A stretch of DNA of 64,000 nt, from the UHGV virus genome UHGV-1558314. One strand, given 5' to 3'. Source of the DNA: a virus. Below, piece after piece: positions 10,665 to 63,581 of this stretch (the first letter of the stretch is position 1; every line of letters begins with the position of its first letter). The notes under the pieces were generated by a model. That model ran no database searches, was not told the DNA's origin, and saw only the letters and a list, made by a program, of their open reading frames with translations. A program made the translations under genes and the position numbers.

Positions 10665-10710
10665 TGTCAATTTGCACAATTGTTGTTAACAAAATGCATT
10701 ACATTGACAA

Positions 10711-10763: not shown

Positions 10764-11822
10764 TTACTGCTTCAAGCCTGTGAACAGTTCATACTTGAAT
10801 GCAGGCCCTGCTGTGTAAGCCTCAAAGTAGAAGTCACCAATATTGATGCTTGCAATAGCGTCATCGACAGCTTTCTTGTAGCCTACACGTTCAATTGTCT
10901 GCTTATCGCATTTACGCCAATATGTGCTGTGCATCATAAGCGTGGGTGATGCAGCATAGTCTACTGCAAGCTGTTGTTTTGCAGTGTCAATGTGATGTTC
11001 ATAGATGTGCACATCATTGCCAGTCCAAATGAACTCTCTTGCCGCACAGTTAGTCAATGTTGCAACAATATGTGTAAGCAATGCATATGATGCGATATTG
11101 ATGGGCACACCAAGACACATGTCACAACTACGCTGAGTAAGCGCACAGTCAAGCCACATGCTTGGTACTTGAGCAGAATCAAGGCATTCTGCAGAACAAT
11201 CATGCACAAGCATGCTATCATTAGCAATCTGAATTCGTTCTTCAAGAGTCATTGGCTGACAATTGAACTGAAACAGCATATGACATGGCGGCAATGCCAT
11301 CTGAGACATTTGTGCAGGATTCCATGCAGACACGACTTTGTAGCGGCCAGTTGGATTGATGACAATGTCTTTAATGCAAGTTGCAAGTTGGTCATATCCA
11401 CTGTCATTGAAGTTGCGCCACTGATACCCATAGATAGGTCCGCAATCACCATACTCAGGCTTGCTGAATTTTGTGTTATGCAGTTCTGTGCACCAAGTTT
11501 CAAAGTCGACATCTTCACCTGGATGCAGTTTACGCCAATGACGATATGCATCCTGATGCCAGAACTTTGTAATACCAAGCGTGTCAAGCGTTTTTACATT
11601 TGTATCACCTGACATAAACCACAGAAGTTCTCCAATGACACCCTTGACAAACATTCTCTTGGATGTCAACAGTGGAAAGCCTTTACGCAAATCAAATCGC
11701 ATTGATTCTACAAACAATGACTTTGTGCGAGGCATGTTTTCACGAGCAGGCTCCTTAAATCTGCCATGTTCAATAACATTGTTAAGTACTCTCAAGTACT
11801 CAGTGTCGTGTTTGATATTCAT
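10764..11822 (-). CDS. thyA: thymidylate synthase (ThyA family, with insertion)
   Basis: FPLLTSKR, VVSAWNPAQ, catalytic ALPPCHMLFQF, and LGVPINIASYALL with Asn at the base-specificity position (uracil-specific). Confidence 0.8.
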   Translation of the reverse strand: MNIKHDTEYLRVLNNVIEHGRFKEPARENMPRTKSLFVESMRFDLRKGFPLLTSKRMFVKGVIGELLWFMSGDTNVKTLDTLGITKFWHQDAYRHWRKLHPGEDVDFETWCTELHNTKFSKPEYGDCGPIYGYQWRNFNDSGYDQLATCIKDIVINPTGRYKVVSAWNPAQMSQMALPPCHMLFQFNCQPMTLEERIQIANDSMLVHDCSAECLDSAQVPSMWLDCALTQRSCDMCLGVPINIASYALLTHIVATLTNCAAREFIWTGNDVHIYEHHIDTAKQQLAVDYAASPTLMMHSTYWRKCDKQTIERVGYKKAVDDAIASINIGDFYFEAYTAGPAFKYELFTGLKQ

Positions 11823-14626: not shown

Positions 14627-14666
14627 CACAAAAGCAAGCAGACTACAATTGCAGTCTGCTTGCTTT
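14627..14666 (-). terminator. rho-independent terminator (13-bp stem) followed by TTTTGTG
   Basis: AAGCAAGCAGACT / AGTCTGCTTGCTT stem; near-identical palindrome at 30977-31004. Confidence 0.55.
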
Positions 14667-15047: not shown

Positions 15048-15929
15048 CTATCGTTTGAATTTGATGAAGTGTTCAGCATCGAGGCCCTCAAATACATACG
15101 GGTCAAGAGTTTCCCAGAAGTTTGAGTATGTCGTTGTCTTTGCAATGCTTGTTTGCTTTGACAAGTTCATATTTGGGTAGCCAAGCATTGCATAGTGTCG
15201 CTCATATATGTGCATTGACGTCGCATTATGCACATATGCGCCAAGCTTAAGACCAAGTTCATTTGCGACAAGTTCTTGCAACAAAGTGAATGCAAACTGG
15301 TCGTTGCAAAAGCCCCAAATGACATCATTGCTTCGCATGTATGTTGTCAAGTACAGCTTATCACCACGAACATTGAAAACAAGATTCAATGTGCATGGCA
15401 TGTCTTTGCCAGTGTAGTTTGCATATTGCGGCTCATAAATGCTAATAACTGCTCGTCTTGTGCATTCATGATTTCGCAAACGTTCAATGACATCTGCAAT
15501 CTGCTTGTGCCAAATTGCGCCATACTGTGAATTGACATTGACACCATCGTCGCTGAATTGCTTCCAACGAGGCAAATAACGTTCAATGCATTCAACTGCA
15601 GGATTGGCTGTCATGTACCACGCAAATTCTGCAGCAGCATTGAGCTTTTTCCATGGTCGTACGTCAATCTTGATTTGCCGCTGTGAAGGGTCCTGAATAA
15701 CTACAGACACATTCAGCAATTCTTTTGTTCGAGTCACTGTTTGTGCATTGTTGCCCTTTGATTCTACAAACTCACCTCTACAATGAAGTTCATACAAAAT
15801 TGAGCGAAATGCTTCTGTTGCAGTGTTTTCAATGATTGTCGTCTGTTGATAACATAAATTTGACGACAATGCTTCAGCATCATTGTACTTTATGCTGTCA
15901 TTGTCATAAGGTGAATTTTTTGTGTGCAT
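15048..15929 (-). CDS. deoxycytidylate 5-hydroxymethylase (T4 gp42-like, ThyA fold)
   Basis: Catalytic Cys in DMPCTLNLVF; YMRSNDVIWGFCNDQFAF closely resembles gp42 NMRSNDVVFGFRNDYAW, with Asp at the position equivalent to ThyA Asn177 / gp42 Asp179. Confidence 0.7.
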   Translation of the reverse strand: MHTKNSPYDNDSIKYNDAEALSSNLCYQQTTIIENTATEAFRSILYELHCRGEFVESKGNNAQTVTRTKELLNVSVVIQDPSQRQIKIDVRPWKKLNAAAEFAWYMTANPAVECIERYLPRWKQFSDDGVNVNSQYGAIWHKQIADVIERLRNHECTRRAVISIYEPQYANYTGKDMPCTLNLVFNVRGDKLYLTTYMRSNDVIWGFCNDQFAFTLLQELVANELGLKLGAYVHNATSMHIYERHYAMLGYPNMNLSKQTSIAKTTTYSNFWETLDPYVFEGLDAEHFIKFKR

Positions 15930-21341: not shown

Positions 21342-21358
21342 TCTAAATGAGATTTAGA
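21342..21358 (-). promoter_or_regulatory. palindromic leader element TCTAAATGAGATTTAGA just upstream of the Mre11-Rad50 start codon
   Basis: Same 17-bp palindrome as at 14388-14404, at -3 to -19 from the ATG. Confidence 0.5.
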
Positions 21359-21386
21359 TTATATGTTGATATTGTACAACATGCAA
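21358..21386 (-). promoter_or_regulatory. sigma-70-like promoter TTGCAT-N17-TATAAT with conserved TTGTACAA core
   Basis: Minus-sense TTGCATGTTGTACAATATCAACATATAAT, about 18 nt upstream of the ATG at 21339. Confidence 0.55.
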
Positions 21387-21418
21387 AATGCACTTGCATT
21401 TTGATACAACGTATGTCA

Positions 21419-21766
21419 TTATTTTGCAAGCATTTTGCTGATTGCATCTATCACAGTTTCACTGAGCAAGTAGTAGACAACGCTTATCAGCAATGATATC
21501 AGTACTGCAGCTGTGATAAATTGCAACGCATTCACAATTGCACGCACAAATGTTATCTGTGTGTTGTATGCAAGCACTATGCAGCATAGCACAATAATGA
21601 CACACCAGACTACAATTGCATATGCAGGCATCAATGAATTTGTCCATATGCAGTACAATACAGTAGTTAGCATCAAAAATGCTATTGCTCTGATGACTGA
21701 CACAATGATGTCTATGTAGAGCTTCATTACACGTAAATGAACTCTTGGCTTATGCGGTTTCATCAT
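21419..21766 (-). CDS. small membrane protein
   Basis: ORF 21419..21829 trimmed to internal Met; hydrophobic segments IIVSVIRAIAFLMLTTVLYCIW, AIVVWCVIIVLCCIVLAY, AAVLISLLISVVYYLL. Confidence 0.4.
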   Translation of the reverse strand: MMKPHKPRVHLRVMKLYIDIIVSVIRAIAFLMLTTVLYCIWTNSLMPAYAIVVWCVIIVLCCIVLAYNTQITFVRAIVNALQFITAAVLISLLISVVYYLLSETVIDAISKMLAK

Positions 21767-23001
21767 GACTTTATGTACAATTCTGCAAGTTGTCTGGTGT
21801 ACAATCGTGGATTGTGATATGCTTTCCAATATGCAGTAGACTTTATTGCAGCAAGAATCTCATCATAATGTTTGACTGCTTTTGCTACAACTTCATCAAG
21901 TACATGCAAATCTTCTACACTAACAAGCAGCCATTTTTCTACAATGTCAATGAATTCTTGATTGCAATTAAAGCCATATTTGTAGTTGCAAGTGTCAAGT
22001 ACAAGTGGGATGCAGTCATTTGTCAGTGCTTCAAAAAATCTACGAAGACTGAAACAATTCTCATCATATGATGGAATGCTTAATGTAAACTTGGCAGTCT
22101 TGATGAGTTGCAAATACTCTTCGTATGGAATCAGAGGACCATTGTGCTTCCACTGATTGTTATGTCGTCTTGTTGTGTACTTGAACAAAAACTTTGAACT
22201 GTCAAGCTCACAAAGATGGTCCATGCGTAAAATGTAGTTATAGCGGTCTCTTCTATCAGGCCAACTGTCAGTCATTGCAAACACAAAGTCTCTTTGCTTG
22301 TCACATTTTGCTGACATACCTCTATGCTGACACATGCAGTACCAATATTGCTGCGATGGACTGAACTCGAACTTTGAGTGATGCTCACTGCCATCTTTGC
22401 ATTGTTGAACGTAAATATTGTCAGGCACAAAGTGAAAGTAGAAATGTCGAATTTGCAAGCCGTCAATGTAGTCAAGCTTATGCTGCAATGGGTCCTCACA
22501 GAAATTGTAACACTGAATGCGTTTTGCTGCAGCATACTCAGCAACTATGAATGTGCACACCCATTGCAATGCGATGTCTTCACTCTTCAAAAAGTCAACA
22601 AGTGGCTCATTTGGATGCGCTTTGCATTCATTGAACATTTTGTACCACTTGCATTGCTCCATGTCATACTTGGAGACTGTATTGCCATTAAAAAATGACA
22701 CAGTATCAATTTTGAATGCCTCAAGTTGTTTATGCACAATGTCGATTGCTTGTGCATATGTGACAGTCTCATCAGACATTATTTGTGCAAACTTGATTGG
22801 ATGCGCATGCAAATTTGCAATTGTGTCTGCTGACATTTTGCGCTGTGTATGATAATCGACATACAAAAACTGACACTTGTCTGTAAGCAATTCAAGCATT
22901 GCTACAGATTTCCATCGAATTGCTTGAAAGAAATTGAAGTGCGCAGTTTGAAAAATGAGATGCGTAGGCTTGTCAGAATGAGTCAAAGTTTGCATGGACA
23001 A
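21763..23001 (-). CDS. putative DNA glycosyltransferase, GT-B-like (paralog A1)
   Basis: Paralogous to 26026..27582 (shared EDPLQHKL[D/N]YID, SPSQQYWY, IPSYDENCFSLRRFFEALTNDCIPLV). The C-terminal S-L-R-x-F-x-E...P-L-V patch resembles the catalytic region of phage beta-glucosyltransferase. Family assignment is from memory. Confidence 0.45.
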   Translation of the reverse strand: MSMQTLTHSDKPTHLIFQTAHFNFFQAIRWKSVAMLELLTDKCQFLYVDYHTQRKMSADTIANLHAHPIKFAQIMSDETVTYAQAIDIVHKQLEAFKIDTVSFFNGNTVSKYDMEQCKWYKMFNECKAHPNEPLVDFLKSEDIALQWVCTFIVAEYAAAKRIQCYNFCEDPLQHKLDYIDGLQIRHFYFHFVPDNIYVQQCKDGSEHHSKFEFSPSQQYWYCMCQHRGMSAKCDKQRDFVFAMTDSWPDRRDRYNYILRMDHLCELDSSKFLFKYTTRRHNNQWKHNGPLIPYEEYLQLIKTAKFTLSIPSYDENCFSLRRFFEALTNDCIPLVLDTCNYKYGFNCNQEFIDIVEKWLLVSVEDLHVLDEVVAKAVKHYDEILAAIKSTAYWKAYHNPRLYTRQLAELYIKS

Positions 23002-24158
23002 ATGTCGCAGTTATGTTGATGTTTGTGTTTATTTATGAAGTCATATGTCACTGCAAAAAAGTGCTTTGCAATGTCATATCGAGTTTTCAAATATGCTGCT
23101 TGTCGTTCACAAAATGCTGCATAAATATCTGGGTGTTGTTTGAATGCTGCAATGCGTTGCTGTACTTGTTCTGCAGAATGCACATATGACACTTTGCTCA
23201 AATATACATCATCTGCAAATAATCGTTTGTCTTTGTCAACTGCGCAATCAACAAAAGTTGCAATTCGTGCAACAATTGCTTCACCGACACGATTTGGTAT
23301 TAGCCCATATTGCTCATATTGCTGTTCGCCGATAGCAATGTGTGCTGCTGCATATGACATTGCATATGGCACACTATAAAATGGCACACTAAAATCAAAT
23401 GAACAATTTGACTGCAGCAATTGTGTTTGTGCATCAGACAATCTACTTGTCAAGTTGCCTGTATATTTGTGCTCACCAAGAAAACTTGAGCGACAGCCTG
23501 AATCTACATAGTATCGAATGACTTTGTTTATGCGACTGTCAGATAGCATATGCCAATCTCTTGTAGCATATATCAAGTCTACTGTTTTTGCGCCAATATG
23601 ACGAGGCTCTATCGCAACATTGCTGTATGTTGGCAGCATAAACAATGGCAGCCATTTGACATTGTTGAACACTGAATGCTCATTTGACAAATTCATGCAC
23701 TGGCTAAGTTCAAGTACTGGCTCATCATACACGCCATGTAGCTCAACTCTGCCTGCATGCACAAAGTTGACACGCTTAAATGGAAATCGCATATCAGTGC
23801 AAACTGTCATTCTTGCTGCAATAGACATTCGCCACATAGCATGCAGCTTAACAACTGCTTCTGCTTGAGGTCGAGGCAACATATTTAGCAAATCAATCCA
23901 GCCGCCCCACAAAATCCAAACATCATTTGAACAGATGTTGAATTGCAAACTCAATATGTCTTCTACTGTTGTAGCAATAATGTCATGCCCATTGATGCTT
24001 GCAAGGTGTTTTCGTTGATTTGCAATAATAATGACTTGACTGAATGGAGACTCTGGAAATGACACAAGCGCTTTTGCAAACAACACGGGTTCTTGCGACA
24101 CCAAGTTGTTTGAGTATGGGTCGATTATGCAATCAAGCTTGTGTATGAAGAGTCTCAT
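22983..24158 (-). CDS. hypothetical DNA-modification-associated protein (paralog B1)
   Basis: Paralogous to 27579..28745 (similar N-termini MRLFIHKLD / MSKLFILKFD; shared L[L/I]PNR[W/V]-x-E-x-[V/I] near C-terminus). Sits immediately upstream of A1, as B2 does of A2. Confidence 0.4.
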   Translation of the reverse strand: MRLFIHKLDCIIDPYSNNLVSQEPVLFAKALVSFPESPFSQVIIIANQRKHLASINGHDIIATTVEDILSLQFNICSNDVWILWGGWIDLLNMLPRPQAEAVVKLHAMWRMSIAARMTVCTDMRFPFKRVNFVHAGRVELHGVYDEPVLELSQCMNLSNEHSVFNNVKWLPLFMLPTYSNVAIEPRHIGAKTVDLIYATRDWHMLSDSRINKVIRYYVDSGCRSSFLGEHKYTGNLTSRLSDAQTQLLQSNCSFDFSVPFYSVPYAMSYAAAHIAIGEQQYEQYGLIPNRVGEAIVARIATFVDCAVDKDKRLFADDVYLSKVSYVHSAEQVQQRIAAFKQHPDIYAAFCERQAAYLKTRYDIAKHFFAVTYDFINKHKHQHNCDICPCKL

Positions 24159-24889
24159 TTTGCAGATGATTCAAAAAATTTGTAGACATCGCAGTTAGCA
24201 ATGTGGTCATTCCAAGCATCTTCAGAGTCTGCAACAAAGCCACAATGACAGCGTTTTGGCTGCCAAACTGGTTCAACTACTGCAGGCATTGCTTCTTCAA
24301 TAGTGTTTGCAGGTTCATTATCTGCTGGCAATACTTCAACGTCTTCAACTTGTGCTGCATCTTGTTGTGCACGCTGCTCAATGACATTGCCCTCAAAGTC
24401 AAACTGAATGCCAGCTTGTTCTGCTTTTGTACGATTATTACGAGCTACGAACAAATACGCAAAGATGAATTCGACAAGCGCTATGGCAAGTGACTTCAGT
24501 GCATTGACAAGAAGCATGATGCCTGTTGATAAATGGCCGTCAAAGCTCAAAAACACGAACACACATGTAAAGCATGACATAAACACTGCAATCAGTGGAA
24601 TGTTCTTGTATTTTGGCAACAAATCAGAGTTGACTGATGTAAGCAACACAACGAATTGATAACCTATTGCAAGCCAATAGTCGCCAAACACTGCATAGAT
24701 ATGCGTAGTGATGCCAATAAGAAATGTGATAGTCACAATCATAATGAGCAACACACTTGTCAGAAAGTCTGCAATAGAATTGCTGAGCTTGTCATACCAG
24801 TGTTTGTTGACAATTGACGTGTTGGCTACGCGCACTTTACTAAGTGCATCTATGCCGCTTTTGATATTTGATTGTGCTTTCATACACAT
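24155..24889 (-). CDS. membrane protein with C-terminal Cys/His cluster
   Basis: Four hydrophobic segments; C-terminal RCHCGFV...HIANCDVY could bind zinc. Confidence 0.45.
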   Translation of the reverse strand: MCMKAQSNIKSGIDALSKVRVANTSIVNKHWYDKLSNSIADFLTSVLLIMIVTITFLIGITTHIYAVFGDYWLAIGYQFVVLLTSVNSDLLPKYKNIPLIAVFMSCFTCVFVFLSFDGHLSTGIMLLVNALKSLAIALVEFIFAYLFVARNNRTKAEQAGIQFDFEGNVIEQRAQQDAAQVEDVEVLPADNEPANTIEEAMPAVVEPVWQPKRCHCGFVADSEDAWNDHIANCDVYKFFESSAK

Positions 24890-25030
24890 ATAACGTTATA
24901 TCATATCTACACACAAAGCAAATGCTACTGCAAGTGCAGCCATAATTGCATATACGACTATCGATGCAGTATAATCTGATTCAGGATTCCACTTATCAGG
25001 TGTGTTAAGCTTGTGATACTTGTCTCGTCT

Positions 25031-25082
25031 CATCTTGAGTCAAAAAATGATGGCTGCTGCTACATTTTGTGAAATCATGTGC
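25031..25082 (-). promoter_or_regulatory. hairpin plus U-tract (possible attenuator or terminator) between promoter and gene 24155..24889
   Basis: 12-bp inverted repeat GATGGCTGCTGC / GCAGCAGCCATC with 20-nt loop, followed on the minus strand by TTTTTT. Confidence 0.4.
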
Positions 25083-25124
25083 AGCAGCCATCTGGCAGGT
25101 TTCTTGCTTTGTAAAGCTTGGATA

Positions 25125-25153
25125 GAGGATGGATTTTATATGTTGATATTGTA
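25125..25153 (-). promoter_or_regulatory. sigma-70-like promoter TTGCAT-N17-TATAAA (second copy of conserved motif)
   Basis: Minus-sense TTGCATGTTGTACAATATCAACATATAAA; spacer identical to the copy at 21358-21386. Confidence 0.5.
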
Positions 25154-25195
25154 CAACATGCAAAATGTATTTGCATTTTGATACAACATATATTG

Positions 25196-25411
25196 TCATT
25201 TTGCACAGTCTGATGCAATTAAATCTTTGTCAAAGCATTCATCTATAATGTCTTCAATAAGATACGCTTCGACATTGTTAAGCTTCAAGATATCTACGAG
25301 TTTTGCTTTGATATCGCAAGCTAATGCAGATTCGACTGTATGCAATATGACTGATGATACGACATGCTTGTCTGTCATCATTTGTAATTGCTGTGGTGTT
25401 ACTCTACTCAT
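25196..25411 (-). CDS. hypothetical small protein (71 aa)
   Basis: ORF track; 4-nt overlap with the upstream kinase gene. Confidence 0.35.
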   Translation of the reverse strand: MSRVTPQQLQMMTDKHVVSSVILHTVESALACDIKAKLVDILKLNNVEAYLIEDIIDECFDKDLIASDCAK

Positions 25412-25980
25412 GCGCCAAGTTCAGCTAAGCATTTCAACACATTGTCTTGCAGACTTGCATTGTTGTCAATTTCGACAATATGCAATGGTGAGTTCTTTCG
25501 CCACTCATCATATGCAGCAATCATTTCATTGCGTTTGCTGACATCAATGTTGACATCACCGCAAAAATTATCGACAAAATCTGGCACAACATCACGCTTG
25601 CATAAGAACACTACGTGCGGCAATGTTGCAAGCTTCTTTTCATATGCTTCAAAGAATGCTTGATGCTTATCAGTGTGCAGCTCTTTGTAAAGCGTTGTGT
25701 TGAAGATTTGATGCGTGATGAATGAACGGTCACACAAAAACGTTGCTTTGCCAAAGCCTTGAGAGTCATTTCCAATGAACTCTAAGAAGAAGCGCCAATC
25801 ATAAAAGAACGCTTCATTGAGGTCCCAAGGTTCGGGCATTGGGTCATCACCTGACTCATGCTGCTGCCACCAAGAACGAGATGTTCGTTTGCAATTGATA
25901 AACCATGGGCGCCACTTCATCAATTCATTGATGAGTGTTGTTTTGCCTGAAGCTTCTACACCTTCAAATATCGCTATCAT
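25408..25980 (-). CDS. P-loop deoxynucleoside monophosphate kinase (thymidylate kinase-like)
   Basis: N-terminal IAIFEGVEASGKTTLI (Tmk-type P-loop) and CDRSFITHQ (DR[Y/S]-like motif). Confidence 0.6.
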   Translation of the reverse strand: MIAIFEGVEASGKTTLINELMKWRPWFINCKRTSRSWWQQHESGDDPMPEPWDLNEAFFYDWRFFLEFIGNDSQGFGKATFLCDRSFITHQIFNTTLYKELHTDKHQAFFEAYEKKLATLPHVVFLCKRDVVPDFVDNFCGDVNIDVSKRNEMIAAYDEWRKNSPLHIVEIDNNASLQDNVLKCLAELGA

Positions 25981-26025
25981 TGTGTATTATGTTTGATTTT
26001 TGATTACAGTACAACGTAGTTATGC

Positions 26026-27582
26026 TCATTGCACTTCTACGAATGGCTCTTTCAACACAAAGCTGTCACCATTGCAACATGCGGCTGAGCCATCGTCTGC
26101 ATCAAGTGCGCATGACATATCAGACTTGCAGAACTTGCAATATGAACATGACCATGCATGACTCATAAAGTTGTTTGCTTCACAAATTACACAGCGCTCA
26201 TGTGAAAGTGTATTGTCGCAATTGTCACAAGACTTCTTGATTGGCACATCTTTATTGATATATGCAAGATGCAATGCAATATCATACACAAAGTCACCCG
26301 TATATTGCTGAATGAAATCAGTGTGCCACAACTCTTTTAACAATTGTGTATGTCTATATGGCTGAACAATGTCTTCAAGATGCTGCAAGTCATCATCGCT
26401 AACCATGAGCTTCTTAATGACAAACTGTTTGAACTGCGGCCATCTGTCAAACATATAGAGTTTGCATGAGTTGTGCACAAGTGGAACACAGCCAAGCACA
26501 ATGCTTTCACAGAATCTACGCAAACTAAAACAGTTTGCATCATATGACGGCACAATCAATGTGAATCTGCTATGCTTGATGAGTTCAAGGTATGTGTCAT
26601 ATGGCAGTAGCTTGTCTGACAATGGCTGCTGTTGCTTGTCCCTGCTGAAAAATCTGAACACAATGCCTTTATCAATTGCATCTTGATTGTGCAGATGCAT
26701 GAGTTTGTTGATGAGTTCTGTGCGTTCAGTTTTGTCTCGCCAAGTATTCGTCAATGCAAATGCAAAATTCAGTCGCTTGTCATCAAACGTCGCTTCAATG
26801 TCATCCCAAGTTTTGTCATGCAAATACCAGTATTGCTGTGATGGGCACCATCCATAATATGCAATAGCGTCTTGTTCTGCTGTAACGTCATACACATATG
26901 CAGAATTGTATTCAAGGCCAAGCCCTTTGACATTGTTGCAGTCATGAAAGTACCAATGCTGCACTTTGAATATCTTTGATGCACTGAATGCGCTTTCATA
27001 TGGCCCTGAATAGCGATAGTCAATGTAATTGAGCTTGTGCTGCAATGGGTCTTCGACAAAGTTGTTTATGACTGTGCCTTGTTGTTTGCCATTAGTCTTG
27101 CGAGCATTCAATGCAATATTGTACTGCATAATGACTGACAGCATCTCATACACTACATACATGAGTGCTTTGTAGACTGAGCCTGCTGCGTCAATTAGCG
27201 GCAAATCACGTTTGACTGATGCAGTACCAAATGTCTTGCAATATGCAGAAAATGTATCAAGTTCTGCCTGTTGAAATGAATTGCATGCGCCATTGAATAT
27301 GTTGAATGTTGCAATGTAGCTCATATTACAAGATGTCATTGACATATCAAGACGCTTCATAATGTCAGCAATGCGACATTGAGCAAAATCTGACACATCA
27401 ACATATTTGACATGATGACCTGATGCAGTCAAGCCAACTGCGACTTCTTTCATTTGTGGCACAAAGCCTACTACAATGAACAAGTCATCTTTGTTTGCTC
27501 GTTCAAACATTGCTGCACTTTTCCAAGTCAATGAATTGAAAAAGTCTATGTAGCCAGTCTGTGTGATGATATGTGTTCTCAT
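26026..27582 (-). CDS. putative DNA glycosyltransferase, GT-B-like (paralog A2) with Cys-rich C-terminal tail
   Basis: Paralog of 21763..23001 (VEDPLQHKLNYID, CPSQQYWY, VPSYDANCFSLRRFCESIVLGCVPLV). Extra C-terminal Cys cluster (CDNCDN...CVICE...CSYCKFCK). Confidence 0.45.
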   Translation of the reverse strand: MRTHIITQTGYIDFFNSLTWKSAAMFERANKDDLFIVVGFVPQMKEVAVGLTASGHHVKYVDVSDFAQCRIADIMKRLDMSMTSCNMSYIATFNIFNGACNSFQQAELDTFSAYCKTFGTASVKRDLPLIDAAGSVYKALMYVVYEMLSVIMQYNIALNARKTNGKQQGTVINNFVEDPLQHKLNYIDYRYSGPYESAFSASKIFKVQHWYFHDCNNVKGLGLEYNSAYVYDVTAEQDAIAYYGWCPSQQYWYLHDKTWDDIEATFDDKRLNFAFALTNTWRDKTERTELINKLMHLHNQDAIDKGIVFRFFSRDKQQQPLSDKLLPYDTYLELIKHSRFTLIVPSYDANCFSLRRFCESIVLGCVPLVHNSCKLYMFDRWPQFKQFVIKKLMVSDDDLQHLEDIVQPYRHTQLLKELWHTDFIQQYTGDFVYDIALHLAYINKDVPIKKSCDNCDNTLSHERCVICEANNFMSHAWSCSYCKFCKSDMSCALDADDGSAACCNGDSFVLKEPFVEVQ

Positions 27583-28745
27583 GATTTGAATGTTTGTTCA
27601 AGAATTGTGTAACACTGCACAATCATTACTGCAAGAGCTTTTTGCTGTGCTTGTTTGCAATCATCAAAATTTGTGGGCGCAGTGCGTACGCGTGTTTTGC
27701 TATTAAGTGTCGCAAATGTCGCGTAGTCATCGAAGCCTATAATGTCAGCAAATAGGGCAATTGGCTTATAATCTACAAGTATGTTGCAGCAATTTGCAAG
27801 TACGCCTTCAACCCATCGATTTGGCAGCAAGTCTGCTTGCACATACAATGAATCACCAACTACAAGATTGTATGCCGACTGTGACATTACACGCGGCATT
27901 GCATCGTATGTGACTTTGTATTTAAGTGTAAAGTTTGGTGCTGCTGATTTAATCGCAGACAAAATTGTGTCATCAAGATATGATGTTATGAGACACGTGT
28001 CGCACATATGTATGACAAATTGTTCAATCACACTTCTACGATACTCGTCAAGATATGTGAAACCTGCACAACTTGCACAGCATGCATATTGCTGCTTTAT
28101 GTCAGCAAAGCTACGCACATGAGCTTCAATTGCATTTTGCATCGTTACTTGTAGTTTAAGCAATCTTGGCTCTTTAATGTATTGAAGCTTCAATGCATTG
28201 ACTGCTGCAATGATTTGCAATGGGGCAAACACACATTGAGACTCATCAAGCCAAGCGTATTTGAGATTTTTGTGCTGGCATAGATGCGTAATGTTGTCTT
28301 TTTGTGATTCTAAGTACTCTTTGTAATTGTGCAATCGCTTTGTCAATGTGCATTCTTTATCAAAGTCGAATCGCAAATCAGTTGTTAGTGTAAATTTGCG
28401 AGCGTTTGACAAACACCATGTTTTGAATGCATTCCACAGAACATCTTGCTGAAATTCTGAGCAATGTTCAAGAGCAGCCTTTGAACCTTGCCAGAATATT
28501 GCGCAATCATCTGATTTTGCGCACTTCAGCATATCTTGCCATGCATGTATGTTATTGATAATATGCACATTATCATACACAAGCTCATCAAGTATTGCAT
28601 GCTTGTTCTCAGGGTCGCCAAACACATATACAGCATCAAACATTGTCTGCACAAAACCTGCAAATGCAATAGGTTCTGTATGCTTAAGATGCTGTACGTC
28701 TGAACGCACGCATGTGTCAAATTTCAAAATGAATAGTTTGCTCAT
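27579..28745 (-). CDS. hypothetical DNA-modification-associated protein (paralog B2)
   Basis: Paralog of 22983..24158; same position relative to its A partner. Confidence 0.4.
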   Translation of the reverse strand: MSKLFILKFDTCVRSDVQHLKHTEPIAFAGFVQTMFDAVYVFGDPENKHAILDELVYDNVHIINNIHAWQDMLKCAKSDDCAIFWQGSKAALEHCSEFQQDVLWNAFKTWCLSNARKFTLTTDLRFDFDKECTLTKRLHNYKEYLESQKDNITHLCQHKNLKYAWLDESQCVFAPLQIIAAVNALKLQYIKEPRLLKLQVTMQNAIEAHVRSFADIKQQYACCASCAGFTYLDEYRRSVIEQFVIHMCDTCLITSYLDDTILSAIKSAAPNFTLKYKVTYDAMPRVMSQSAYNLVVGDSLYVQADLLPNRWVEGVLANCCNILVDYKPIALFADIIGFDDYATFATLNSKTRVRTAPTNFDDCKQAQQKALAVMIVQCYTILEQTFKS

Positions 28746-29442
28746 ATACTTTGCAATTATCTATTACATGTTGATATTGTACTTCATCTATGATGTGATT
28801 TGCAATGACACCATATGAGGCGTCATACATTGGCATCTTCTCATATGACAATGCTGCGTCAAGATTGCATATCACATAATTGCAATGCACAATGTCATCT
28901 ACATTGTCACTAACTGCTACGATATTGACACACTTTGCAAGAAATGCATCATCAAAGTCTACTTGATTGCATGCAACCTCATAATCTGCTGCGCTTCTTG
29001 GGTACCAATATAACTCAATGCCAGCACTACTAAGTAGTCGCAAGCCATCTATGTGATGATACAAGTCAACAAAATGCACTTGCTTAACGCCTGCTTGCAA
29101 AATAAGCTTTGCGCAATCAATGCATGGACTGTATGTTACATACAGCACTGCGTCATTTGCGGTCGCATTGCCATATTTGCACAGCTTCATCAATGCGTTT
29201 GATTCTGCATGCAAAACTTCTTTGTTGGTTTTGATACCTGCCGATGTTGCATGCTCACAACAATTTGACATGCCAGTTGGCATGCCATTGTAGCCATCTG
29301 AAATTATGCAACCATTTTTTACAAGCAATGCGCCAACTTTTGCTCGCTGAGCATATGAATTTAATGACCAAAGCTCAGCCATTTTAAGATATATGAGATT
29401 TCGTTGAAACTGCTTTGTTTCAGACCAAGTTAGCCATTTCAT
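28717..29442 (-). CDS. dCMP deaminase (zinc-dependent cytidine/deoxycytidylate deaminase family)
   Basis: Zinc-ligand motifs LHAESNAL (H-A-E) and YSPCIDCAKL (P-C-x-x-C). Confidence 0.8.
   Translation of the reverse strand: MKWLTWSETKQFQRNLIYLKMAELWSLNSYAQRAKVGALLVKNGCIISDGYNGMPTGMSNCCEHATSAGIKTNKEVLHAESNALMKLCKYGNATANDAVLYVTYSPCIDCAKLILQAGVKQVHFVDLYHHIDGLRLLSSAGIELYWYPRSAADYEVACNQVDFDDAFLAKCVNIVAVSDNVDDIVHCNYVICNLDAALSYEKMPMYDASYGVIANHIIDEVQYQHVIDNCKVYEQTIHFEI
28763..28791 (-). promoter_or_regulatory. partial copy of conserved promoter motif inside the 3' end of the dCMP deaminase gene
   Basis: Minus-sense GAAGTACAATATCAACATGTAAT, about 18 nt upstream of the B2 start codon at 28745. Confidence 0.35.
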
Positions 29443-29446
29443 ATGC

Positions 29447-30829
29447 TTACAGTGAGTTTATAATTTTGATAAAGTCTGTTACAATGTTTGTATGCAACTC
29501 AATGAGATAGTTGTCTTGTAATGTCATAAGCTCATCAAGTTCATCTACACTTAATGACTTGAAGACTTCTGCACAATGCTTGGCATTTTTGATGTGTGCG
29601 ACTTTATGATACTTGATAAAGTCAGGACACACACAATTATTCACGTACATACAAGGCAAGCCTGCAAGCATTGATTCAGTTGCTCTGAATGTAATTGCGT
29701 TGCATTGTTTCATATTCTCTTCACACACAATGTATGCAAAGTCGAACTGCGACAAGTATGTTAACATGTCAAAATACTTGATTGTGCCATTATAGACATG
29801 TGGCATATCAATGTCGATATTGCCGACAACATGAGTTTCGATGTCTGCGCAGCCAAGCAAATCAATGACTTCTTGTTTGCGTTCAGCGCACATGTCATTC
29901 CAAGCAACCATCGGCATTGCAGTAGTCAACTTGCCTGATTGCAATTTTGCTAAACGTTTTTCGTTATGTGATGCATACAATGGAATGCCTTCAAGTCTTG
30001 CATGCTGAATTGTGTTGACATTGATTTCTGTCAGCATTGACAACGCATTATGCATGTTCTGTGCTTGTGTGACAACTGTCATCTTTTTGCAGCGCAATCT
30101 AAAGTTTGCAATGTGTGGCACGAGTCGTAAATCATACCACAGCCATACAATGTCACCCTTCCATGACTCAATAAGCTGCTTGTGCTGTTTGTAGATGACT
30201 GACTGACTCATCAAGTCATTCATTGCTGAGCATACAATGTACAACACACCATATTTGTCAATTGAGTGCTGCACATAGTCAACTGAGCAGCATAGCACAT
30301 CTTTGTCGAAAAGTTTTGGGTCATGCACTTCTGCATCATCTACAATAAGATGTGCCTTGTATTGATGCTGCTTTGTTGCATCAATGATGCGAGCAATTGC
30401 AAAGCATTCTCTACTTTGAATGTCTGTCTTATCTTGTCGTGGTTGGTCTTGTGTTCGTACAGGATATGCAGGCTTAAGTATTACAGGCACAAAATGTGTT
30501 TTTGCAGAATATGGTGCATCTACTGCAGCAAACTCCGCGTTGCATCGTTGTGAATGCAGATGTCGTGCATATGATTGCAACAATTCATGAATCATTGCAA
30601 TGTACTCTTTCAATTCAAACAGCTCGTGTACAGTTGCGTTTGTTATGTCGACTACGACAGTTTGTCGCACAATTGGATACACACAAATAACGTAATCATT
30701 ATATGATAGTGGAATGCCTATAAATGCTGAGCATCTGTTTCGAAGCCATGCAATGCAATCAGCGTCAAACACAATTTCATATTGCTGCTGCAAAGCATTT
30801 AATTGCGCTATAATCAAATCATTGTGCAT
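29447..30829 (-). CDS. putative glycosyltransferase-like protein (family C)
   Basis: C-terminal ITFRATESMLAGLPCMYV resembles the GT-B acceptor/donor motif (R-x-x-E...G-x-P). Confidence 0.4.
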   Translation of the reverse strand: MHNDLIIAQLNALQQQYEIVFDADCIAWLRNRCSAFIGIPLSYNDYVICVYPIVRQTVVVDITNATVHELFELKEYIAMIHELLQSYARHLHSQRCNAEFAAVDAPYSAKTHFVPVILKPAYPVRTQDQPRQDKTDIQSRECFAIARIIDATKQHQYKAHLIVDDAEVHDPKLFDKDVLCCSVDYVQHSIDKYGVLYIVCSAMNDLMSQSVIYKQHKQLIESWKGDIVWLWYDLRLVPHIANFRLRCKKMTVVTQAQNMHNALSMLTEINVNTIQHARLEGIPLYASHNEKRLAKLQSGKLTTAMPMVAWNDMCAERKQEVIDLLGCADIETHVVGNIDIDMPHVYNGTIKYFDMLTYLSQFDFAYIVCEENMKQCNAITFRATESMLAGLPCMYVNNCVCPDFIKYHKVAHIKNAKHCAEVFKSLSVDELDELMTLQDNYLIELHTNIVTDFIKIINSL

Positions 30830-30845
30830 ATTCGTATTGTTTTAT

Positions 30846-30874
30846 CATATATGAATATATTGTACAACATGTAT
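30846..30874 (-). promoter_or_regulatory. conserved promoter motif (ATACAT-N17-TATATG variant)
   Basis: Minus-sense ATACATGTTGTACAATATATTCATATATG, 16 nt upstream of the ATG at 30829. Confidence 0.45.
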
Positions 30875-30970
30875 TGAGCTTTTGCACAACATATGTTGTT
30901 AAAATATCATCATTGTACAACATAAAGCGCATATTTGCACGTTGTGTTGCTAAAAATATTGTTATTGTAC

Positions 30971-31004
30971 ACAAAACAAGCAGACTGCAATTGCAGTCTG
31001 CTTG
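30971..31004 (-). terminator. rho-independent terminator (perfect 28-bp palindrome) followed by TTTTGT
   Basis: CAAGCAGACTGCAATTGCAGTCTGCTTG; stem near-identical to the hairpin at 14632-14666. Confidence 0.55.
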
Positions 31005-31051
31005 CACTTGTTATTAACCCTTAAAATCAATGACACTATGTCAATGTCATT

Positions 31052-48095: not shown

Positions 48096-48166
48096 TGTTA
48101 CTGTGCAATTTTTAATTGTTTGACATGATATTTATATGCATTGCTTAAGCAATGTTGAATTGACAT

Positions 48167-52495: not shown

Positions 52496-52550
52496 TTTAT
52501 GTCGTTTTGTTATTTTCTGTGATATTTACACACACAATGTAACTTGCATT

Positions 52551-62551: not shown

Positions 62552-63448
62552 TTACAGTGTTCCGCAAAGCAATTCACGTAAATCCATGCCGGCTTGTGTA
62601 CTGTACTGAGCAATAAGATTACGTTCTGAATCAGACATACTCCAATAAATCTTATGCAGAGCTCTACGAATAATAGTATGAATGCCAGATGTGCTACAAT
62701 TGAACTTCTTTGCAAGTTCTGCATGAGTTAACAAATCAGCATCGCCAAGGCCATACACATGTGTGAGTACAAGCTTTTCATTTTGAGTGAGTTGTTCAAA
62801 TGCTCTTTGCAGAATCTTTGTGATACGTTTGTGAGCATCTTCGATTTCAAGAACTTCTTGGCCTGTTTTGAAGTCTGACCTCAAATCATTCTGAACTGGT
62901 GACCATGCGTCACCATCTTTGTCAAGTGTAGTGTCATCCTTGCTGATGAATTGCTTGCCTTCAAGAGCTCTTTCATATGCTCCACGAATACCAGTAGATA
63001 ATTGTTGACTTGTCAGATTGAGTTCGTCAAGCACATATTTCTTAATCCAAGGATATGCATATGTGCTAAACTTTGCTTCACGAACTCCTGCAGGCAATAC
63101 GCCTTCTACGTAATTCTTGGCTGCTATTGACAATCCAAGATTGCCTGCTTGAATGACGTCATCAAATGGAACCGAGCGTTTGCCAGATGCGAACCATAAG
63201 CTTCGTGCAACTGATATGACCAATCTTAAACAAGATTTGATAAGAGCTTCACGATTTTCTTGAGTCTTCTTGAATCGAGTAACATCACAATATCGCTTTG
63301 CAGTAGCCAGCGATTTGACTTCTTCAGGAGTAAGCTCATTCTCCATCCTCATTTGCTTGAGCTCTTCCTTTGTGTATAGACGTTCTCTTGTGATTCTACC
63401 TACGTCCTTTACGTAGCCTTGATTGATTTGTGAATTTGAACCTGCCAT
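62552..63448 (-). CDS. sigma-70-family RNA polymerase sigma factor (regions 2 and 4)
   Basis: Region 2: DDVIQAGNLGLSIAAKNY and FSTYAYPWIKKYV; region 4 HTH: LTQNEKLVLTHVYGLGDADLLTHAELAKKFNCSTSGIHTIIRRALHKI. Confidence 0.7.
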   Translation of the reverse strand: MAGSNSQINQGYVKDVGRITRERLYTKEELKQMRMENELTPEEVKSLATAKRYCDVTRFKKTQENREALIKSCLRLVISVARSLWFASGKRSVPFDDVIQAGNLGLSIAAKNYVEGVLPAGVREAKFSTYAYPWIKKYVLDELNLTSQQLSTGIRGAYERALEGKQFISKDDTTLDKDGDAWSPVQNDLRSDFKTGQEVLEIEDAHKRITKILQRAFEQLTQNEKLVLTHVYGLGDADLLTHAELAKKFNCSTSGIHTIIRRALHKIYWSMSDSERNLIAQYSTQAGMDLRELLCGTL

Positions 63449-63581
63449 GGTTGTGTAACTTATTTAGTTTTAATTTGTTATATAAATTTAATCATTTTTT
63501 GTCACATATGAAAATGTTTTGCACATTATTGTCACATAAAGTGTAAAAAAGTTATGAACATTTTGTTAACACATGTAGACA

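What the first reader, a model, noticed from the sequence alone, without database searches (positions are those of the whole stretch)
28763..28791. Internal promoter-like motif embedded in the 3' end of the dCMP deaminase coding sequence
A partial copy of the conserved promoter core (GTACAATATCAACATGTAAT) lies inside the deaminase gene, about 18 nt upstream of the overlapping start of paralog B2 (28745). The second glycosyltransferase module may therefore be transcribed independently of the deaminase.
Basis: seen in the sequence. Interest (0 to 1): 0.35.

Follow-up and report, generated by a model that had tools for sequence, protein, structure and literature searches.

The report
Probable internal promoter inside deaminase gene
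A real, weaker copy of this uncultivated gut phage's own repeated promoter-like motif lies inside the end of its dCMP deaminase gene, correctly placed to start a separate transcript for the next two sugar-transferase-like genes; internal promoters like this are an ordinary feature of phage operons, and this one has not been tested by experiment.

Summary
GTACAATATCAACATGTAAT lies at 28763..28782 on the minus (coding) strand, in codons 221-227 of the 241-codon dCMP deaminase, 18 nt before the B2 start (28745).

It belongs to a phage-specific two-block motif, (g)TGCAAA-N16-TGwwG-TAnnnT-ATCAAyATATAAT. That motif sits before nine other gene starts in the window and before three in a distant relative. 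The intragenic copy also has a -35-like TTGCAAA (28805..28799).

- **Motif score:** a matrix trained without its two near-identical copies gives it 26.4 bits. The next unrelated site in the window scores 19.0, and none of 300 shuffles reach 26.4.
- **Position:** its -10-like hexamer is 30 nt before the ATG, as in three intergenic copies (29-31 nt).
- **Conservation:** in nine lineages 4-8% apart, no third-codon position varies from the -35 to the B2 start (21 codons). The run is 1, 7 and 7 codons at neighbouring junctions.

Against a working promoter: the spacer is 17 nt rather than 16, the upstream half is degenerate, the only distant relative lacks the motif here, and there is no transcript data.

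Most likely (about 0.6) it is a weak internal promoter, with a start near 28769 rather than 28755. This is a new member of a known kind and of low to moderate interest.

The parts
28799..28805 (-). -35-like element TTGCAAA of the intragenic copy
   Evidence: All 12 reference copies have TGCAAA/TGCAAG/TGCATA here. It is invariant in nine lineages.
28782..28798 (-). 17-nt spacer TCACATCATAGATGAAG, ending in TGAAG where the family has TGTTG, TGTAG or TGATG
   Evidence: The spacer is 16 nt in all 12 reference copies. It holds the only substitutions between the -35 and 28749 in nine lineages (L129: 28788 and 28785, both nonsynonymous).
28776..28781 (-). -10-like hexamer TACAAT
   Evidence: All 12 reference copies have TAnnnT at this position. 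The sigma-70 consensus scan reports TTGCAA-18-TACAAT with 9 of 12 matches. Invariant in nine lineages.
28763..28775 (-). Conserved block downstream of the -10, ATCAACATGTAAT. The predicted transcription start is near A28769. An ATG-TAA start-stop pair lies at 28769..28764.
   Evidence: Twelve of 13 bases match copy 21358. The start site is inferred from the usual spacing of 7 nt after a -10 hexamer; it has not been measured.
28743..28745 (-). ATG of B2, with 30 nt between the -10-like hexamer and the ATG
   Evidence: The same gap is 29, 30 and 31 nt for the copies before 30829, 10618 and 21339.
28717..29442 (-). dCMP deaminase with a C-terminal extension of about 90 aa. The motif occupies codons 213-227.
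   Evidence: Pfam dCMP_cyt_deam_1 on residues 19-124. The extension and the ...IHFEI* end are conserved in L113.
27579..28745 (-). B2, a probable GT-B-type glycosyltransferase and the first gene of the proposed internal transcript
   Evidence: It is a paralogue of 22983..24158, which matches the PHROG beta-glucosyltransferase family at E 1.4e-7. A low-confidence model (pLDDT 52.9) has GT-B enzymes, including T4 BGT, as best PDB matches, all at TM about 0.35. The assignment is weak.
26026..27582 (-). GT47/exostosin-like gene, the second gene of the proposed internal transcript
   Evidence: Pfam Exostosin_GT47 at E 9.7e-6, below the curated cut-off. It is a paralogue of 21763..23001.
30841..30939 (-). 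Tandem intergenic promoter copies (TGCAA at 30939 and 30886) that head the operon containing the deaminase
   Evidence: They are preceded by a terminator-like hairpin at 31005..30976. L120 and L130 fuse the two copies through a 53-nt deletion.
25130..25205 (-). Intergenic promoter copy of the same sub-type (18 of 20 bases in the core), ahead of the paralogous B1/GT47 module
   Evidence: families D1 and D15.
21353..21428 (-). Intergenic promoter copy of the same sub-type (19 of 20 bases), ahead of the 1308-aa SbcCD-like gene
62552..63448 (-). Phage-encoded sigma-70-family factor, a candidate reader of the two-block motif
   Evidence: PHROG sigma factor at E 3.8e-26. Pfam Sigma70_r2 and Sigma70_r4 both score above their cut-offs. 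The link to the motif is inference only.

Best explanation
The segment 28805..28763(-) is a weaker, intragenic member of this phage's own class of two-block promoters: TGCAAA at -35 and TAnnnT at -10. It is embedded in the last 30 codons of the dCMP deaminase gene. RNA polymerase would start near A28769 and make a transcript with a leader of about 24 nt that covers B2, the GT47-like gene and probably the 190-aa kinase-like gene. The polymerase would be directed either by the phage's sigma-70-family factor (62552..63448) or by a host sigma; which one is not shown. This transcript would add to read-through from the tandem promoters at 30939 and 30886. The glycosyltransferase pair could then be expressed at a level or time different from the deaminase, and similar to the paralogous module behind the near-identical promoter at 25175. 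Shown here: family membership, geometry and nucleotide-level constraint. Inferred: promoter activity, the start site and the sigma factor involved.
For: (1) Motif score. A two-block weight matrix trained without the two near-identical copies scores the site at 26.4 bits. Leave-one-out scores of the intergenic copies range from 15.5 to 42.9. The next unrelated site in the window scores 19.0. None of 300 dinucleotide shuffles of the 64-kb window reach 26.4; the maximum is 24.3. (2) Placement. It is the only high-scoring site wholly inside a long ORF, it is on the coding strand, and it has 30 nt between the -10 and the ATG, compared with 29-31 nt for three intergenic copies. (3) Constraint. In nine lineages 4-8% divergent, 0 of 20 third-codon positions vary across 28746..28805, against 21.9% gene-wide (binomial 0.007). 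The longest run of invariant third positions in the gene, 31 codons from 28807 to 28717, begins at the -35. Upstream of the next ATG the run is 21 codons here and 1, 7 and 7 codons at the three neighbouring junctions. The three variable sites in the element are all nonsynonymous (Fisher 0.033), and the two that lie between the -35 and 28749 are both in the spacer. Orthologous intergenic promoter 30939 likewise varies in its spacer (and in the sixth base of its -35 block) while its -10 block stays fixed. (4) Sub-type. The core is the same sub-type as the promoter ahead of the paralogous B1/GT47 module. (5) Relative. L113 uses the same motif between genes. It also has weaker copies inside the 3' ends of the B2-like gene (18.7 bits, before GT47) and the GT47 gene (17.2 bits). 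Embedded copies at shifting junctions therefore recur in this cluster. (6) Sigma factor. The phage encodes a sigma factor with regions 2 and 4, which fits a -10/-35 architecture.
Against: The spacer is 17 nt where all 12 reference copies have 16. T replaces G/A before TGCAAA. TGAAG replaces TGTTG, and L129 has TAAAG. The downstream TATAAT is TGTAAT. As a result it scores in the lowest third of the family. The motif is absent at the same junction in the only distant relative, which keeps the 29-nt overlap; B2 can therefore be expressed without it there, presumably by read-through and translational coupling. Runs of 27-31 invariant third positions also occur three times elsewhere in the neighbouring genes, so the constraint signal is suggestive rather than unique. 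Codon usage in the segment is unremarkable, at the 18th percentile. No start sites have been mapped for any copy of the family.
Confidence: 0.6

Rival explanations
1. The site is an inactive or negligible look-alike. It is a degenerate copy with no meaningful promoter activity. B2 would be made only from the polycistronic transcript started at 30939/30886, by translational coupling through the 29-nt overlap.
For: The site deviates in the spacer and the upstream half. L113 has the same overlap without the motif. Other long runs of frozen synonymous sites exist without any motif.
Against: A score of 26.4 bits is never reached in 300 shuffles. The frozen run starts exactly at the -35 and is three times longer than at neighbouring junctions. 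The -10 to ATG distance matches the modal value of the family.
Confidence: 0.25
2. The nucleotide constraint serves another function on the long mRNA or on the DNA. Candidates are a translation-initiation or coupling region for B2 in a host without Shine-Dalgarno sequences, or a binding site for a regulator that also recognises the shared 15-mer GTACAATATCAACAT. Transcription would not start here.
For: No Shine-Dalgarno sequences precede genes in this window. The block downstream of the -10 is conserved across the family and would lie in the 5' leaders. ATGTTG-N8-CAACAT is a perfect inverted repeat in copies 21398 and 25175.
Against: The constraint reaches 60 nt upstream of the ATG and includes the -35-like and -10-like blocks. 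Other junctions freeze only 1-7 codons. The inverted repeat is broken in this copy (ATGAAG) and in most family members. No RNA structure stands out: z = -1.16 for the long fold and +0.16 for the short one.
Confidence: 0.1
3. The site is a recombination scar. The core would have been pasted in by exchange with another promoter copy, or would be a leftover of a cassette-mediated insertion of the B2/GT47 module. It would persist without being selected as a promoter.
For: Promoter copies in this phage do recombine. A 53-nt deletion fuses 30939 and 30886 in L120 and L130. A 30-nt duplication of the upstream half is present in some lineages and absent in others. Terminator-plus-promoter cassettes are repeated at 14631..14663 and 30973..31005. 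Comparable cassettes (PeSLs) drive module shuffling in T4-type phages (PMC2839356, PMC4122927).
Against: Gene order, the 29-nt overlap and the deaminase tail are shared with L113, so no module insertion happened at this site since the two diverged. Identity to the other copies stops abruptly outside the core. A neutral scar does not explain the frozen synonymous sites.
Confidence: 0.05

Closest known systems
Intragenic (internal) promoters of phage operons, as described for T4 middle and late promoters that lie within upstream coding sequences (from my own knowledge of T4 biology)
   Same: A promoter-like element embedded in the 3' end of the upstream gene, on the coding strand, a few tens of nt before the next start codon. 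It would add a transcript to read-through from upstream.
   Different: This phage is uncultivated and no start sites have been mapped. The consensus (TGCAAA-N16-TAnnnT with TGwwG) is not that of T4 early, middle or late promoters.
Sigma-70-type -35/-10 promoters
   Same: Two blocks at the canonical distance. TTGCAA-18-TACAAT matches the consensus at 9 of 12 positions. TAnnnT is kept in every family member. A sigma factor with regions 2 and 4 is encoded in the window.
   Different: The family carries far more conserved sequence than a generic sigma-70 promoter (30-45 bits). The -35 reads TGCAAA rather than TTGACA. Which sigma factor reads it is unknown.
PeSL promoter/terminator cassettes of T4-type phages (PMC2839356, PMC4122927)
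   Same: Highly similar promoter copies are scattered through the replication and nucleotide-metabolism region, some paired with a repeated stem-loop. There is evidence of recombination between copies.
   Different: The intragenic copy has no stem-loop and no indel polymorphism at its position. The phage is related to the PAU/MA9V/PTm1 phages, at about 29% helicase identity, rather than to T4.
Bacteroidota housekeeping promoters (-33 TTTG / -7 TAnnTTTG; from my own knowledge)
   Same: The host is probably a member of Bacteroidota, as judged from the absence of Shine-Dalgarno sequences and from the nearest cultured relatives. One motif of that general look precedes the sigma gene at 63481..63514.
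   Different: The candidate and its family contain no TAnnTTTG element.

Membership tests
This phage's own promoter-like motif family (TGCAAA-N16-TGwwG-TAnnnT-ATCAAyATATAAT) | -35-like TGCAAA block | tested here: met
   TTGCAAA lies at 28805..28799. The preceding base is T where 9 of 12 copies have G and 3 have A. A T also occurs in an orthologous intergenic copy (L117 17285).
This phage's own promoter-like motif family (TGCAAA-N16-TGwwG-TAnnnT-ATCAAyATATAAT) | Exactly 16 nt between TGCAAA and the TAnnnT hexamer | tested here: not met
   The spacer is 17 nt in the candidate and 16 nt in all 12 reference copies.
This phage's own promoter-like motif family (TGCAAA-N16-TGwwG-TAnnnT-ATCAAyATATAAT) | TAnnnT hexamer preceded by TGwwG | tested here: met
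   The candidate has TGAAG-TACAAT. Reference copies have TGTTG, TGTAG or TGATG (one has AGTTG), so TGAAG combines variants already seen. L129 has TAAAG.
This phage's own promoter-like motif family (TGCAAA-N16-TGwwG-TAnnnT-ATCAAyATATAAT) | Overall score separable from background | tested here: met
   26.4 bits with the reduced model. The next unrelated site scores 19.0. None of 300 shuffles reach 26.4.
This phage's own promoter-like motif family (TGCAAA-N16-TGwwG-TAnnnT-ATCAAyATATAAT) | Intergenic position, on the strand of the downstream gene and upstream of it | tested here: not met
   Strand and distance are right (30 nt to the ATG), but the element lies wholly inside the deaminase ORF. It is the only family member in the window that does.
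Functional bacterial or phage promoter | A transcription start site a few nt downstream of the -10 element | not testable with these tools
   No transcript data are available. The phage is known only from metagenomic contigs.
Functional bacterial or phage promoter | Purifying selection on the nucleotide sequence beyond what the protein needs | tested here: met
   0 of 20 third-codon positions vary, against 21.9% gene-wide. The invariant run upstream of the ATG is 21 codons, against 1, 7 and 7 at neighbouring junctions. This rests on nine lineages only, and similar runs occur elsewhere.
Functional bacterial or phage promoter | Conservation at the same position in distant relatives | tested here: not met
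   L113 (B2 44% identical) lacks the motif at this junction.
PeSL-type promoter/stem-loop cassette (T4-type phages) | Promoter coupled to a terminator stem-loop | tested here: not met
   There is no hairpin next to the candidate. Other copies do follow a repeated hairpin (14631..14663 and 30973..31005).
Bacteroidota -33/-7 promoter | TAnnTTTG at -7 | tested here: not met
   No such element is present in the candidate or in its family.

The most novel reading that the evidence does not exclude
The TGCAAA/TAnnnT motif family is the regulon of the phage-encoded sigma-70-family factor (62552..63448). That factor's own gene sits behind a different, host-type motif shared with Chryseobacterium phage MA9V-1. 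The result would be an early-to-middle transcription cascade in an uncultivated gut phage of Bacteroidota. The intragenic copy would split the DNA-hypermodification operon, so that both paralogous glycosyltransferase modules are driven by the same promoter sub-type, separately from the enzymes that make the modified nucleotide.
Probability: 0.3. Interest if true: 0.45.

Novelty: new member of a known kind. Interest (0 to 1): 0.3.

Why it matters
If active, the site shows how this phage separates production of the nucleotide precursor (deaminase) from sugar transfer onto DNA (B2 and the GT47-like enzyme). It would also tie the two duplicated transferase modules to the same promoter sub-type. 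More broadly, the motif family gives a ready-made promoter set, and a candidate sigma factor, for a group of gut phages that cannot yet be grown. An internal promoter is not in itself surprising.

Tried and rejected
- **Close phage relatives by DNA:** a megablast of 27000..31000 against GenBank phages found no match.
- **More distant relatives:** I searched with B2, with the L113 homologue, with a B2 alignment, and with a conserved 23-mer in viral and metagenome contigs. Only one species-level cluster plus L113 exist, so no lineages of intermediate divergence are available.
- **RNA structure around the B2 start:** not significant, on either the long or the short transcript.
- **Codon-usage bias in the segment:** unremarkable.
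- **Rfam:** no family match anywhere in the window.
- **Homology between the deaminase tail and the 244-aa protein that precedes B1:** none.
- **The 64-aa ORF 25005..25199:** it reads VQYQHI across promoter copy 25135 in the same frame as the deaminase. It overlaps an intergenic promoter and a hairpin, so I judged it spurious.
rejected. Only the upstream hexamer fits TAnnnT in all copies.
- **B2 structure:** the model has low confidence (pLDDT 52.9), so the glycosyltransferase assignment remains weak.

Full report
**What is at the coordinates.** Every gene in this part of the window is on the minus strand. On that strand, 28782..28763 reads GTACAATATCAACATGTAAT. It lies in codons 221-227 of ORF 28717..29442, a 241-aa protein. 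Residues 19-124 of that protein match Pfam dCMP_cyt_deam_1 at E 5.5e-21; the last 90 or so residues are an extension. The next ORF, 27579..28745 (388 aa, 'B2'), starts 18 nt downstream of the motif and overlaps the deaminase by 29 nt. B2 is followed by a GT47/exostosin-like ORF at 26026..27582.

B2 and the GT47-like protein have paralogues at 22983..24158 (24% identity, E 8e-14) and 21763..23001 (30%, E 5e-47). The B1 paralogue weakly matches the PHROG family of T4 beta-glucosyltransferase. A low-confidence B2 model has GT-B glycosyltransferases as its best PDB matches. The surrounding genes form a nucleotide-metabolism and DNA-modification cluster: two thymidylate-synthase homologues, helicases, a gp32-like single-strand DNA-binding protein and an SbcCD-like nuclease.

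**The motif family.** The 20-mer recurs with one mismatch at 21358..21377 and two mismatches at 25135..25154, both between genes; 0.00 matches are expected by chance. Repeat finding and pattern scans place these three in a larger family on the minus strand, with TGCAA starting at 10676, 14473, 21398, 25175, 30886, 30939, 34475, 37415 and 43579.

- **Consensus.** Aligned, the copies read (g)TGCAAA, then 16 nt ending in TGwwG, then TAnnnT, then an AT-rich block of the form ATCAAyATATAAT.
- **Position.** All nine lie between genes, point toward the downstream gene, and in several cases follow a terminator-like hairpin.
- **Distance to the ATG.** The gap between the hexamer and the next ATG is 10, 29, 30, 31, 37, 58, 82, 114 or 122 nt.
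- **Likely function.** This layout, with two blocks at sigma-70 spacing and an invariant TAnnnT, is that of a promoter. No copy has been tested.
- **Gene class.** The family precedes replication, nucleotide-metabolism and modification genes and does not precede the structural genes at 48-62 kb, so it looks like an early or middle class.

**Is the intragenic copy a family member?** It carries TTGCAAA (28805..28799), a 17-nt spacer ending in TGAAG, TACAAT (28781..28776) and ATCAACATGTAAT.

- A two-block weight matrix trained on ten copies, excluding the two near-identical ones, scores it at 26.4 bits.
- Leave-one-out scores of the intergenic copies run from 15.5 to 42.9, mostly 30-43.
- The best unrelated site in the window scores 19.0.
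- None of 300 dinucleotide shuffles of the window reach 26.4; the maximum is 24.3.
- It is the only high-scoring site wholly inside a long ORF.
- Its 30-nt gap to the B2 ATG matches the most common class of the family.

Its defects are the extra spacer base (all 12 reference copies have 16), T instead of G/A before TGCAAA, TGAAG instead of TGTTG, and G for A in the downstream TATAAT. It is therefore a genuine but sub-consensus copy.

**Comparative evidence.** The phage is known only from metagenomes. B2 homologues fall into one species-level cluster plus one distant contig. I assembled nine distinct lineages that differ by 4-8% over 4.8 kb: the window, L114, L117, L118, L120, L123, L126, L129 and L130.

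- **Invariance.** The -35-like block, the -10-like block and everything down to 28749 are identical in all nine. The only changes between the -35 and 28749 are two nonsynonymous substitutions in the spacer of L129.
- **Third-codon positions.** 0 of 20 vary across 28746..28805, against 21.9% for the gene (binomial 0.007).
- **Longest frozen run.** The longest run of invariant third positions in the deaminase is 31 codons, from 28807 to 28717. It starts at the -35.
- **Neighbouring junctions.** Upstream of the next start codon the invariant run is 21 codons here but 1, 7 and 7 codons at the three neighbouring junctions. This argues against a generic translation-initiation constraint.
- **Caveat.** Three other runs of 27-31 codons occur in the neighbouring genes, so the signal is suggestive and not unique.
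- **Control.** Orthologous intergenic promoter 30939 varies in its spacer and in the sixth base of its -35 block while its -10 block stays fixed; promoter 30886 does not vary at all in the lineages that carry it.

**The distant relative.** L113 (B2 44% identical) keeps the gene order, the deaminase tail (...IHFEI*) and the 29-nt overlap. It uses the same motif between genes, scoring 32.9 and 31.1 bits. It has nothing at the deaminase/B2 junction. It does have weaker copies inside the 3' end of its B2-like gene, 44 nt before the GT47 ATG (18.7 bits), and in the GT47 3' end (17.2 bits). The window also has a weak copy overlapping the GT47 stop codon (14.8 bits). Embedded copies at gene ends therefore recur in this cluster, but their positions change. 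The copy at 28804 is specific to one lineage.

**How it most likely works.** TACAAT is the -10 element, because TAnnnT is kept there in every copy whereas the downstream hexamer is not. The start site should therefore be near A28769, not 28755. That gives a leader of about 24 nt for B2.

The window encodes a sigma-70-family factor with regions 2 and 4 (62552..63448). Its nearest relatives are in Chryseobacterium phages MA9V-1 and MA9V-2, Sphingomonas phage PAU and Tenacibaculum phage PTm1, and the same phages are nearest by helicase. The sigma gene is preceded not by the TGCAAA family but by a 34-nt motif. That motif matches, with no mismatch, a degenerate consensus I derived from repeated upstream motifs of MA9V-1.

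A cascade is therefore plausible: host polymerase transcribes the phage sigma gene, and the phage sigma then reads the TGCAAA promoters. This is inference only. Under this model the intragenic copy would add a separate, probably weaker, transcript for the glycosyltransferase pair. Its core is the same sub-type as the promoter ahead of the paralogous module at 25175.

**Rivals.** Three alternatives remain: an inactive look-alike with B2 expressed by read-through and coupling (0.25); a constraint serving translation or a DNA-binding regulator (0.1); and a recombination scar (0.05). Promoter copies do recombine here, as shown by a 53-nt deletion fusing 30939 and 30886 in L120 and L130 and by a polymorphic 30-nt duplication. 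This resembles the PeSL cassettes of T4-type phages (PMC2839356, PMC4122927). However, the junction itself is syntenic with L113, and a neutral scar would not freeze synonymous sites. RNA folding gives no support for a structural element.

**Verdict.** Internal promoters are routine in phage operons, so this is a new member of a known kind, and I rate its interest at 0.3.

Noticed in passing
window 62552..63448(-) and 63481..63514(-): The phage encodes a sigma-70-family factor with regions 2 and 4. Its gene is preceded by TTTTCATATGTGACAAAAAATGATTAAATTTATA. This sequence matches, with no mismatch, a degenerate consensus built from about eight repeated upstream motifs of Chryseobacterium phage MA9V-1 (L132). 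It is the only such site in the window. It may be a host-type early promoter, which would suggest a sigma cascade.
   Followed up: partly
window 25046..25092(-): Promoter copy 25175 is followed about 40 nt downstream by a strong hairpin plus a T-run (GATGGCTGCTGC...GCAGCAGCCATC ATTTTTTG), before the next ORF start at 25033. This could be a short transcript, an attenuator or a small RNA. Rfam has no match.
   Followed up: no
window 14631..14663 and 30973..31005: A 33-nt terminator-like hairpin is repeated at 94% identity, each time just upstream of promoter copies. These terminator-plus-promoter cassettes are reminiscent of T4 PeSLs.
   Followed up: partly
window 30859..30939(-); L120 and L130: Two lineages carry a 53-nt deletion with breakpoints in the repeated ATGTTGTACAAT. 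It fuses the tandem promoters 30939 and 30886 into one hybrid copy. This is direct evidence of recombination between promoter copies.
   Followed up: yes
window 21371..21428 and 25148..25205(-); L117 13541 and 17285; L114 17335: A 30-nt tandem duplication of the upstream promoter half (TGCAAA...GTTGTA) is present in both window copies but absent from the orthologous copies in some lineages.
   Followed up: partly
window 48096..48140 and 52496..52545(-): The upstream regions of two structural genes share ...TAAATATCA... (CATATAAATATCA and GTGTAAATATCA). This may be a separate late-type promoter motif.
   Followed up: no
window 10764..11822, 15048..15929, 21763..30829(-): The region looks like a DNA-hypermodification cluster. 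It holds two thymidylate-synthase homologues, a dCMP deaminase with a 90-aa C-terminal extension, two beta-glucosyltransferase-like paralogues, two GT47-like paralogues and a kinase-like 190-aa protein.
   Followed up: partly
window 28717..28745(-); L113 10001..10029: The 29-nt deaminase/B2 overlap and the following bases (ATTCATTTTGAAATTTGAYACATG) are almost identical at the DNA level between relatives whose B2 proteins are only 44% identical. The stretch is coded in two reading frames.
   Followed up: partly
window 29648..29738, 30272..30350 and 26989..27073(-): Three other runs of 27-31 codons have invariant third positions across nine lineages, and none contains a motif hit. They are unexplained; possible causes are other embedded elements or recent recombination tracts.
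   Followed up: no
L132 (MA9V-1) upstream of locus positions 17808 and 34116: MA9V-1 has a second repeated upstream motif, CGTAAACGC-N21-TATATT, preceded by GTTG or TGTG. The part next to the -10 resembles the TGTTGTAnAAT of the window family, but the upstream block differs.
   Followed up: no
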